This document shows, piece by piece, positions 61,681-64,000 of a stretch of DNA of 64,000 nucleotides (positions within the stretch are counted from its first letter, which is position 1; every line of letters begins with the position of its first letter). Source of the stretch: Escherichia coli O157:H7 (GTDB taxonomy: Bacteria > Pseudomonadota > Gammaproteobacteria > Enterobacterales > Enterobacteriaceae); assembly GCF_013167455.1 (NCBI RefSeq), contig NZ_CP038328.1; one strand, 5' to 3'. A program made the position numbers.

Positions 61681-64000
61681 CAATAAGATCCTCTTTAAAG
61701 GAAAATACTGAGACTGTAGAAATGAACAGTAAAGTTTGGGGGAGGCTGAAAAAGATAATCACTTTCTTTAAAAAGTGATTTATGTTTCTGTAAAAAGCCC
61801 GTAGGTATCAACTGCGGGCTAAATTTTCCCTTGATGCTGGTTTTGTCTTTTATCTAAAAAATGCCAGTCTTCACGTTGCTTGTTCCAGCATTAAAGATGT
61901 ATGTGCTGACTTTTTCGCCTTTGAAAGAAACTGTCAGAGATTTAGTTTGTGAGTCTGCGCCACCTGCAAGCAGTCCCACAACGGGGATGAAAGAGGTTGC
62001 TTTGGACTGGCTGTTATACATAGTGTATGACCATTGTTCTTCACCATCGATCAAAGAACGGCTGTCAGGTTCACCGAACGATGCTAACACGTCCTGTTTT
62101 GTAGTTTTGCCTTTAACAATTTTGGTTTTCACACTTTCCTGCGTCTCATTTTTCAATGACTGGTTGCCTACTGAAGAACAACCTGCCAAGGTCAGAAAAA
62201 CGAATCTATATGAGAGTTTTTTGTACCTGAGACTAAATCGCCCTCCCAATGCCCTAGAGAGCGTCTGTTATCGATATTTCGGGAACGTTCGTGAATTGGT
62301 GTTCCGTTCACTATGTTAATCGTACCTCTTTCGCCTTTGCGGGTATGACGCCTGCCATGGCGAAGGCTATGCGACCGTCGCAGATGCTGTATATTCAGGT
62401 GGTGTAGCGCTTCACGGCTACGAAAGTACAGCGTTTTATAAATTGTCTCAGGTGATATTCGCAGCGTTTTTTGACGTGGTTTTGTTCGCCTTAACCATCC
62501 TGATATTTGCTCTGGAGACCATTTCATCTCCAGCTTTTCCAGAACAAGCTTTCGCAATGGTAAATTTTGATCCAGTAAGCACGGTTTTGGCCTTTTCGCC
62601 ATTCTGTTGGCTCGGTTATTAGCATCAACAGCTTTGTAATAGCGTCTGCCCCGATTACGCTGAACTTCACGTGAGATCGTCGAAGGACTGCGATTCAGCG
62701 CAGTAGCTATCGCACGAATGCTCATTTTGGCTGACAAACCAGCTCGTATCTCCTCGCGCTCAGACAGTGTCAGGTGAGCTACAGCCCGCTTACGCTCATG
62801 GGGTTTTATGCCGCCAGTATCCCTTAACATAGTGAAGATCGTTCCGGGTTTTGAACCCAGGATATTCGCTATTTCACTGAAGCCTGTTCCGTTCTTCCAT
62901 AGTTCAAAAACAGAGGCTTTTTCCTCTGCTGTAAATGTTCGTCTCATTCAAAAAACCTCCGCAACCCCATGTTTTCACATAACTGTTGCGTTGACCAATT
63001 GAATCTACAGTGGTCTGTTTTAATATTTCTATTTCTATTTCTATTTCTATTTCTATTTCTATTTCTATTTCTATTTCTATTTCTATTTCTATTTGTTGTG
63101 ATTTTTTCTTTAGTTCATGTATTTCGATTTGTTTCTGAATTATCGGGGGTAGTGTCTTCCCTTTTCCCTGAGGCTTATCATGCAGTTATTTTCGCCATCT
63201 TGGTATTGTGGAAATACCGACATCCATAGCTTTGGTGAGCTCTGTTCAGGTGGCCAAATTCAGAAAACCATTACGGAGGAAGAAGGCGATGGCTAAACCA
63301 GCGCGAAGACGATGTAACCGTAAAAGAGAAGATTTAACTGTTAAAAGGATATTTGAGTTACTAAGTTTCGATAAATCTACCGGGGTATTTAGATGGAAAG
63401 TTCCCACTCAGGGAAGGATAGCATTAAATAGTGTTGCTGGAGCTTTTGATTCCAACGGTTATTCAATGATCATGATAGATGGGCGTAGATATAAAACTCA
63501 CGTCTTAGTTTTTTACATAACTCATAATCGTTGGCCTGCTGGTCAAATTGACCACGTTAATGGAATTAGGACCGACAATAGGCCAGAAAGTTTAAGAGAA
63601 TGCCTGCCAATAGAAAATTCAAGAAATATAAGGATCCGAAAGAATAGCAAATCAGGTTGCAGAGGGGTTACTTGGCACAAACGACAGAAAAAATGGAATG
63701 TTAGGCTAGGATTCCATGGCAAGAGTAAACACTTCGGATGCTTTGATGATCTGGAGTTAGCGGTACTAGTTGCTGAAGAAGCCCGAGATAAGTATTACGG
63801 TGATTTTTCCGGCAACGAAAGGAGCACTTATGCGAATCTATCGAAGGAAATGTAAATGTTGCAATGAATGGTTTATACCAAAATATCAAAATCAATATTG
63901 GTGTAATGAGATTTGTGGAACCAAGATAGCACTCGAACGACGAAGTAAAGAACGCGAAAAAGCGGAAAAGGCAGAAAAGGCAGCAGAGAAGAAACGACGA

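What the first reader, a model, noticed from the sequence alone, without database searches (positions are those of the whole stretch)
63025..63094. (ATTTCT)~12 microsatellite directly outside the IS30 end
A perfect 6-bp tandem repeat of ~70 bp starts 16 bp from the IS30 terminus, in the non-coding stretch upstream of the HNH/ninG genes. It could modulate spacing of a downstream promoter, or be a slippage-prone, assembly-sensitive locus.
Basis: seen in the sequence. Interest (0 to 1): 0.35.

Follow-up and report, generated by a model that had tools for sequence, protein, structure and literature searches.

The report
Known O157 typing repeat VNTR-9
The six-base repeat is real and varies in length between strains. 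It is the long-known "VNTR-9" marker that public-health laboratories already use to fingerprint E. coli O157:H7, and nothing here suggests it does anything for the cell.

Summary
Tandem Repeats Finder reports (TATTTC)x11.8, 100% perfect, at 63024..63094, which starts 14 bp (not 16) from the end of a truncated IS30.

The window is E. coli O157:H7 chromosome running into a degraded lambdoid prophage. The two published PulseNet VNTR-9 primers match the window exactly, at 62767-62797 inside IS30 and at 63278-63304 at the HNH gene start. They bracket a 538-bp amplicon, inside the published size range. The locus is therefore VNTR-9 (also called O157-9, Vhec4 or TR1), a standard MLVA typing marker.

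Complete O157:H7 genomes carry 4 to 22 units at this site.

The same array, with 4-17 units, lies at the same point of the nin region in non-O157 STEC prophages and in Stx1-converting phages that have no IS30. The repeat therefore predates the IS30 insertion and is not tied to it.

I found no sigma-70-like promoter, no Rfam match and no single-strand structure. The open reading frames across the array are not conserved, because 10 of 42 related loci carry a one-base frameshift in the adjacent T-run.

Best reading: a neutral, slippage-prone microsatellite that is already known. The promoter-spacing idea has no support.

The parts
63024..63094 (.). Hexanucleotide microsatellite: 11 perfect TATTTC units plus a partial TATTT. 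This is the variable array of MLVA locus VNTR-9 (O157-9, Vhec4, TR1).
   Evidence: TRF. Sequence read. Copy number varies across genomes.
63010..63023 (.). Native 14-bp left flank (GTGGTCTGTTTTAA). This is all that remains of the original phage sequence between IS30 and the array.
   Evidence: Alignment with IS30-free loci. The same 14 bases precede the array in 42 of 42 loci.
62207..63009 (-). Truncated IS30. The left inverted-repeat end is at 63009. The transposase remnant keeps only its helix-turn-helix domains, and the 3' third with the catalytic domain is missing.
   Evidence: ORF 62192..62947 of 251 aa. PGAP annotates 'IS30-like element IS30 family transposase, incomplete, missing C-terminus'. 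Pfam hits are HTH families only.
62767..62797 (+). Exact binding site of the published VNTR-9 reverse primer GTGTCAGGTGAGCTACAGCCCGCTTACGCTC. It lies inside IS30.
   Evidence: 0 mismatches, unique in the window. Primer printed in PMC8461963 and in PMC3321953 Table A1.
63278..63304 (-). Exact binding site of the published VNTR-9 forward primer GCGCTGGTTTAGCCATCGCCTTCTTCC. It spans the HNH gene start codon.
   Evidence: 0 mismatches, unique in the window. Primer printed in the papers read. The amplicon 62767..63304 is 538 bp.
63102..63107 (.). T6 homopolymer just right of the array. It is itself polymorphic (T5, T6 or T7) in related loci and shifts the frame of every ORF that crosses the array.
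   Evidence: T6 in 32 loci, T5 in 7 and T7 in 3, out of 42 loci. PGAP flags 'frameshifted' in one genome.
63095..63288 (+). Conserved right flank up to the HNH start. It includes a 38-aa ninF-like remnant ORF (63180..63296).
   Evidence: Nearly invariant in 8 aligned loci. ORF list. Annotated as a hypothetical protein in phage SH2026Stx1.

Best explanation
This is the MLVA typing locus VNTR-9 (O157-9, Vhec4, TR1) of E. coli O157:H7. It is a non-coding hexanucleotide microsatellite, (TATTTC)n, in the nin region of a degraded lambdoid prophage, upstream of a ninF remnant, an HNH endonuclease gene and ninG.

Shown: the array changes length in whole 6-bp units. Inferred: the cause is replication slippage (slipped-strand mispairing). 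The resulting range is 4 to about 23 units among isolates. Inferred: the array has no selected function. It is a neutral, fast-mutating tract carried along with one phage module.

The array arose in that module before IS30 arrived. In the O157:H7 lineage an IS30 inserted 14 bp to its left. IS30 was later truncated, and the phage sequence on its far side was lost or replaced. That fixed junction is why one published primer sits in IS30.
For: Identity:
- Both published VNTR-9 primers match the window exactly and uniquely, in convergent orientation. The primers are printed in PMC8461963 and in PMC3321953 Table A1.
- The 538-bp amplicon lies within the printed 474-614 range.
- The 6-bp unit and the alternative names Vhec4, TR1 and O157-9 agree with PMC3768571 Table 1 and PMC3321953 Table 1.
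- The window is O157:H7: 280 genomes match at about 100% identity.

Variability:
- The locus spans 765, 801, 837, 843, 861 and 867 nt in O157:H7 genomes.
- An evenly spaced sample of 30 O157 genomes gives 4, 6, 7, 8, 9, 10, 11, 12, 13, 14, 15, 16, 17 and 18 units, mostly 9-14.
- Strain Z1831 has one unit more than Z1830, Z1832 and Z1833, a set of bovine-faeces isolates with near-identical chromosome lengths.
- The literature reports 6-23 repeats, 15 alleles and a diversity index of 0.90. It also reports single-unit insertions in serial passage, about 1.3e-4 per generation, and one-unit differences between sub-clones of a single strain.

Independence from IS30:
- The same array with the same flanks occurs without IS30 in an O111:H8 prophage (7 units), phage AU6Stx1 (7), phage SH2026Stx1 (17), 245 E. 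coli genomes, and 32 of 34 IMG/VR contigs.

No sign of function:
- No promoter is predicted.
- There is no Rfam hit at E<=1.
- The single-strand fold has a minimum free energy of 0 kcal/mol.
- ORFs across the array are not conserved, because a T5/T6/T7 frameshift occurs in 10 of 42 loci.
- PGAP calls a 'hypothetical protein' over the array only when the array is long, and marks one such call 'frameshifted'.
Against: - Absence of function is inferred from negative results of simple scans. No expression data were available.
- One paper lists the locus as 'inside ORF (Z3935/Z3936)'. Some ORF always crosses the array, because T-rich sequence has few stop codons.
- All related loci are more than 96% identical in the flanks, so tests for selection on the sequence have no power.
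- The array is kept at 4 or more units in every one of the roughly 520 genomes and 34 viral contigs seen. No collapsed allele of 1-3 units was found. This could reflect common descent or weak selection.
Confidence: 0.88

Rival explanations
1. The array is a tunable regulatory element. Its unit number changes the spacing or helical phasing of a promoter or operator. It thereby modulates expression of the downstream HNH, ninG and Q genes, or of the divergently transcribed gene that lies to its left in intact Stx1 phages.
For: The array is intergenic and 195 bp upstream of the HNH start. In intact phages it lies between divergent genes. Length is highly polymorphic. In the window no early phage promoter remains upstream, so any expression of HNH, ninG or Q would need a local start.
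Against: No sigma-70-like promoter is predicted on either strand within or next to the array, in either context. The array units are poor matches to the -10 and -35 hexamers (read from the sequence). In intact lambdoid phages nin-region genes are read through from the early rightward promoter and need no local promoter (established knowledge of lambda). Alleles spread smoothly over 4-22 units with no preferred phase, as expected for drift rather than on/off switching.
Confidence: 0.05
2. The array encodes a variable-length repeat inside a small protein: an (FL)n hydrophobic segment or an (IS)n segment on the + strand.
For: In IS30-free loci, ORFs with ATG starts of 46-99 aa cross the array. 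A 6-bp unit never breaks a reading frame. PGAP annotates a hypothetical protein there in some genomes. PMC3321953 lists the locus as inside an ORF.
Against: Ten of 42 loci have a one-base change in the T-run right after the array. This swaps which N-terminus and repeat frame is joined to which C-terminus, and PGAP marks one such locus 'frameshifted'. PGAP calls the ORF only when the array is long. In the window the native start codons are gone, replaced by IS30. The (FL)n frame would use CTA, the rarest leucine codon in E. coli (my own knowledge).
Confidence: 0.05
3. The array is a by-product of IS30 (target duplication, end-associated sequence) or an assembly artefact.
For: It lies 14 bp from the IS30 end. 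Simple repeats can be mis-assembled.
Against: The array is present with identical flanks in loci that have no IS30. It appears in hundreds of independent complete genomes. It has been sized by PCR in many studies. At 71 bp it is shorter than common sequencing reads.
Confidence: 0.01

Closest known systems
MLVA locus VNTR-9 = O157-9 (Keys 2005) = Vhec4 (Lindstedt 2003) = TR1 (Noller 2003) of the PulseNet E. coli O157 protocol (Hyytia-Trees 2006)
   Same: Both primers match exactly. The unit is 6 bp. The amplicon is inside the published size range. The unit-number range among O157 genomes (4-22) matches the published 6-23. The host is O157:H7.
   Different: Nothing differs; this is that locus. 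What I add is context that the papers I could read do not state. The reverse primer lies in a truncated IS30. The array also exists without IS30 in non-O157 STEC prophages and Stx1 phages. That may explain some 'null alleles' (an inference).
Neighbouring hypervariable locus O157-10 (TR2, Vhec1)
   Same: It is also a 6-bp perfect array, (GCCAGA)x30.7 at 61499..61682, only 1.3 kb away on the other side of IS30. It ranges from about 9 to about 51 units across 314 genomes. Published Vhec1 alleles of 21-45 repeats and its status as the most variable locus fit this.
   Different: That array lies inside a 432-aa ORF and encodes (Pro-Glu)n. The VNTR-9 array is non-coding. I inferred the identity with O157-10 from properties only and did not verify it with primers.
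Phase-variable 'contingency' simple-sequence repeats (for example in Haemophilus or Neisseria promoters and ORFs)
   Same: Both are perfect short tandem repeats that mutate by slippage at high rate.
   Different: Contingency repeats switch a gene on or off, either by frameshift (unit not a multiple of 3) or by changing the -35/-10 spacing. Here the unit is 6 bp and no promoter spans or adjoins the array.

Membership tests
MLVA locus VNTR-9 / O157-9 / Vhec4 / TR1 | Both published locus-specific primers anneal, convergently, on either side of the array | tested here: met
   exact, unique matches at 63278-63304 (-) and 62767-62797 (+). Primers as printed in PMC8461963 and PMC3321953 Table A1.
MLVA locus VNTR-9 / O157-9 / Vhec4 / TR1 | Repeat unit of 6 bp and amplicon within the published size window (474-614 bp) | tested here: met
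   TRF period 6. The amplicon 62767..63304 is 538 bp. Range, unit length.
MLVA locus VNTR-9 / O157-9 / Vhec4 / TR1 | Unit number polymorphic among E. coli O157:H7 isolates | tested here: met
   4 to 22 units in complete O157:H7 genomes. The literature gives 6-23 units and 15 alleles.
MLVA locus VNTR-9 / O157-9 / Vhec4 / TR1 | Genomic position at EDL933 ORFs Z3935/Z3936 | not testable with these tools
   The old Z locus tags are not in the collections searched. The window's gene order (srl, recA, alaS, csrA, gshA, luxS, proVWX, nrd, gab, ypjA, then the prophage) fits that part of the EDL933 map as I remember it (recA near Z4002), but I did not verify this.
Phase-variable (contingency) simple-sequence repeat | Repeat lies between the -35 and -10 of a promoter, or in an ORF with a unit length that is not a multiple of 3 | tested here: not met
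   The unit is 6 bp. No sigma-70-like promoter was found in 61600-64000 or in the IS30-free locus.
Phase-variable (contingency) simple-sequence repeat | Unit number correlates with on/off expression of an adjacent gene | not testable with these tools
   No expression data are available.
Coding tandem repeat in a conserved protein | A single reading frame through the array and both flanks is preserved in relatives | tested here: not met
   the T-run after the array is T5 or T7 in 10 of 42 loci, which changes the frame relationship. PGAP calls are inconsistent.
IS30-derived sequence | Array present only together with IS30 | tested here: not met
   identical array and flanks without IS30 in prophages, two Stx1 phages and 32 of 34 viral contigs.

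The most novel reading that the evidence does not exclude
In intact Stx1-converting phages the array sits between a divergent 590-aa accessory gene and the ninF, HNH, ninG, Q and stx1 genes. Its unit number could tune read-through or local transcription toward the Q antiterminator, and so affect the timing of Shiga toxin and late-gene expression. Alternatively it could encode a hydrophobic micro-protein of variable length. Either reading would make a routine typing marker a source of heritable, rapidly reversible variation in phage behaviour.
Probability: 0.04. Interest if true: 0.45.

Novelty: already known. Interest (0 to 1): 0.08.

Why it matters
It matters little for new biology. The locus has been a standard epidemiological marker for E. 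coli O157:H7 since 2003-2006.

Three practical points follow from the context worked out here:
- One PulseNet primer anneals inside a truncated IS30. Strains or serotypes that carry the repeat without that IS30 junction should therefore give 'null alleles' even though the array is present. This is an inference that fits the 31.7% null alleles reported in PMC3321953.
- Some O157 genomes carry a second, IS30-free copy of the array in another prophage (strain F6321). This matters for calling MLVA alleles from genome assemblies.
- The array is a marker of a mobile phage module shared with O26, O111 and O145 prophages and with Stx1 phages. It is not a marker of the O157 chromosome as such.

Tried and rejected
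- The three founding papers (Lindstedt 2003 PMC317353, Noller 2003 PMC308975, Vogler 2006 PMC1482962) are not held in the library. Locus identity therefore rests on later papers that reprint the primers and names.
- A broad paper search combining O157-9, IS30 and prophage returned only noise. Searches for Vhec1 or O157-10 primer sequences found none, so naming the neighbouring (GCCAGA)n array O157-10 stays an inference.
- Promoter and terminator scans found no promoter. They found only a weak 5-bp hairpin followed by a T-run at 63145-63161, at a frequency no higher than in shuffles of the window.
- Rfam gave nothing at E<=1.
- The single-strand DNA fold gave 0 kcal/mol, so hairpin-driven instability is not needed to explain the variation.
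- I looked by eye for a hybrid promoter made from the TTGACC in the IS30 end plus a TAATAT at the start of the array. The spacing is 24 nt, which is too long, so I rejected it.
- I considered a protein database search for the (FL)n ORF.
- I looked for ancestral alleles with 1-3 units in IMG/VR and found none. The minimum was 4.

Full report
**Observation**

Tandem Repeats Finder reports a period-6 array at 63024..63094 with 11.8 copies, 100% matches, no indels and consensus TATTTC. Read directly, this is 11 complete TATTTC units at 63024..63089 plus a partial TATTT.

Only one other array in the window has more than seven copies: (GCCAGA)x30.7 at 61499..61682. The feature is real and far beyond chance.

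The end of IS30 is at 63009. Alignment with IS30-free copies of the same locus shows that homology starts exactly at 63010 with GTGGTCTGTTTTAA. The gap between IS30 and the array is therefore 14 bp, not 16.

**Setting**

The 801 bases around the array match 280 complete E. coli genomes over their full length at about 100% identity. The listed ones are O157:H7.

Annotation of strain 86-24 gives this order:
- integrase-like genes and several hypothetical genes;
- a BamE-domain lipoprotein gene on the minus strand;
- an 'IS30-like element IS30 family transposase, incomplete, missing C-terminus' on the minus strand;
- on the plus strand: HNH endonuclease, NinG, a serine/threonine phosphatase, an antiterminator, and further on a holin.

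The IS30 remnant keeps only helix-turn-helix domains. The first 50 kb of the window is ordinary chromosome, running from srl and recA to gab and ypjA. The array therefore lies in the nin region of a degraded lambdoid prophage whose early region has been replaced.

**Identity**

I recalled the PulseNet VNTR-9 primer pair from memory and tested it. GCGCTGGTTTAGCCATCGCCTTCTTCC matches exactly and uniquely at 63278-63304 on the minus strand. GTGTCAGGTGAGCTACAGCCCGCTTACGCTC matches exactly and uniquely at 62767-62797 on the plus strand.

Both sequences are printed as the VNTR-9 pair in PMC8461963, with an amplicon range of 474-475 to 613-614 bp. They are printed again in Table A1 of PMC3321953. The window amplicon is 538 bp.

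PMC3768571 Table 1 equates Vhec4, TR1 and O157-9 and gives a 6-bp unit. PMC3321953 Table 1 lists VNTR-9 as 'Vhec4, TR1', 6 bp, 6 to 23 repeats, 15 alleles, null alleles in 31.7% of strains and a diversity index of 0.90. The finding is this well-known typing locus. The reverse primer lies inside IS30.

**Variation**

In one search the 801-nt query spans 765, 801, 837, 843, 861 or 867 nt in different O157:H7 genomes, which corresponds to 5, 11, 17, 18, 21 and 22 units.

In one search I used a 17-unit IS30-free version as the query. For O157 hits, the alignment start gives the unit number as (303 - query_from)/6. The formula returns 11 for strain 86-24, as expected. An evenly spaced sample of 30 O157 genomes gave 4, 6, 7, 8, 9 (x5), 10 (x4), 11 (x3), 12 (x3), 13 (x4), 14 (x3), 15, 16, 17 and 18 units.

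Strain Z1831 has 22 units, while Z1830, Z1832 and Z1833 have 21. These are all bovine-faeces isolates with near-identical chromosome lengths. That is a one-step change of the kind slippage produces.

The literature agrees:
- Serial-passage experiments recorded single-unit insertions at Vhec4, with a combined rate of about 1.3e-4 per generation (PMC3777172).
- Sub-clones of one strain differed by one unit at Vhec4 (PMC4243427).
- Clade-specific medians of 9-12 units are reported in Japan (PMC10062581).

**Relation to IS30**

The array is not an IS30 feature. The following all carry it with the same 14-bp left flank and the same right flank, and none has IS30:
- an O111:H8 prophage (7 units);
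- Stx1-converting phage AU6Stx1 (7 units);
- phage SH2026Stx1 (17 units).

In these intact phages the array lies between a 590-aa minus-strand accessory gene (downstream of ninE where that gene is annotated, as in AU6Stx1) and the ninF-like ORF, HNH, ninG, ninH, Q and stx1.

In E. coli complete genomes, 245 carry the IS30-free arrangement with 5-17 units, in O26, O111, O145 and other backgrounds. About 278 carry the O157 arrangement. One O157 strain (F6321) has both.

Of 34 IMG/VR contigs that contain the right flank, 32 are IS30-free and 2 have the IS30 junction. Their arrays have 4-16 units, and some have internal variant units (TGTTTC, CATTTC, TACTTC, TAATTC).

The repeat therefore arose in the phage module. 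IS30 inserted beside it in the O157 lineage and was later truncated.

**Does it do anything?**

- No sigma-70-like promoter is predicted on either strand in 61600-64000 (0 found, 4.4 expected in shuffles), nor in the IS30-free locus (0 found, 3.5 expected).
- Rfam gives no match at E<=1.
- The single strand does not fold, with a minimum free energy of 0 kcal/mol.
- ORFs do cross the array. In IS30-free loci an (IS)n frame and an (FL)n frame both start at ATG codons. In the window an 86-aa ORF starts inside IS30.
- The T-run immediately after the array (63102..63107) is T6 in 32 related loci, T5 in 7 and T7 in 3. This changes which N-terminus and which repeat frame is joined to which C-terminus.
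- PGAP annotates a 'hypothetical protein' over the array only where the array is long. It marks one such call 'frameshifted' and calls nothing where the array is short.

This behaviour is that of non-coding DNA.

The flanks are otherwise almost invariant, so sequence-based tests for selection have no power. In intact lambdoid phages the nin genes are transcribed from the early rightward promoter (established knowledge), so no local promoter is needed.

The best-supported reading is a neutral microsatellite that mutates by replication slippage. Slippage itself and neutrality are inferred. Length change in whole units is shown.

**Rivals**

- Promoter-spacing control: about 0.05. It has no predicted promoter, and alleles show no preferred phase.
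- A variable-length micro-protein: about 0.05. It is weakened by the frameshift polymorphism and by the loss of the native start codons in the window.
- An IS30 by-product or assembly artefact: about 0.01. It is refuted by the IS30-free loci and by two decades of PCR sizing.

**Comparison with known systems and verdict**

The locus passes every testable defining feature of VNTR-9/O157-9/Vhec4/TR1. It fails the defining features of a contingency repeat, because the unit is a multiple of 3 and no promoter is present. It also fails those of a conserved coding repeat.

It is already known and of low interest as biology. The useful by-products are practical:
- The dependence of the PCR on the IS30 junction may explain some null alleles.
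- A second, IS30-free copy exists in some O157 genomes.
- The marker belongs to a mobile phage module shared with Stx1 phages.

**What did not work**

The founding papers are not in the library. A broad paper search was uninformative. No open paper with O157-10, TR2 or Vhec1 primers was found. The neighbouring array varies from about 9 to about 51 units in 314 genomes and fits the published 21-45 repeats. Its identification as O157-10 is still only inferred.

Noticed in passing
window 61499..61682 (inside ORF 60480..61778, + strand): A second perfect hexamer array, (GCCAGA)x30.7, encodes about 31 Pro-Glu dipeptides in a 432-aa hypothetical protein. A 681-nt query around it spans 549-801 nt in 314 E. 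coli genomes (mainly O157:H7, with single O55:H7 and O121:H19 examples in the sample listed), which is about 9 to 51 units. It fits the hypervariable MLVA locus O157-10/TR2/Vhec1 (published 21-45 repeats), but I could not verify that with primers.
   Followed up: partly
window 62207..63009 (- strand): The IS30 copy is truncated. The transposase remnant has 251 aa with helix-turn-helix domains only and no catalytic domain. Its broken end abuts the upstream region of a BamE-domain lipoprotein gene (61854..62156, - strand). The truncation is shared by O157:H7 genomes.
   Followed up: partly
window 63272..63855: The HNH endonuclease gene (HNH_3 plus a weak AP2-domain hit) begins with MAKPARRRC, the usual first codons of NinG. 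A 46-nt stretch (63272..63317) matches the ninF|ninG junction of many lambdoid phages at about 96% identity. ninG proper restarts near 63830 with a different N-terminus. This looks like a mobile HNH gene inserted into the start of ninG.
   Followed up: partly
window 63102..63107: The T6 homopolymer 8 bp to the right of the hexamer array is itself length-polymorphic: T5 in 7 of 42 related loci, T6 in 32 and T7 in 3. A one-base change here would shift VNTR-9 fragment sizes off the 6-bp ladder.
   Followed up: yes
window 55020..59174 (+ strand): Three consecutive, slightly overlapping genes of 403, 441 and 543 aa. The first two hit the phage integrase (tyrosine recombinase) family and the third has no Pfam hit. 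The arrangement resembles a recombinase trio at the left edge of the segment that replaced the prophage early region.
   Followed up: no
window 50327..54397 and 54005..54092: A YpjA/EhaD-like autotransporter ORF carries an imperfect 12/24/36-bp repeat that encodes a PNPDPKPDP linker. The ORF appears to end early compared with a full autotransporter.
   Followed up: no
L003 2876..4648 and L004 2912..4684 (phages SH2026Stx1 and AU6Stx1): In intact Stx1 phages a 590-aa minus-strand hypothetical gene lies immediately left of the repeat, downstream of ninE where that gene is annotated (AU6Stx1). The O111:H8 prophage (L002) has two different minus-strand genes in the same slot. This slot is a swap point for accessory genes.
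   Followed up: no
one search hit list (strains F7386 vs 7386WT/7386Nal; Z1830-Z1833): Assemblies that appear from their names to be the same or sister strains differ at this locus. F7386 has 17 units against 11 in 7386WT and 7386Nal. Z1831 has 22 against 21 in its three sister isolates. This is either real stock-to-stock slippage or assembly differences.
   Followed up: no
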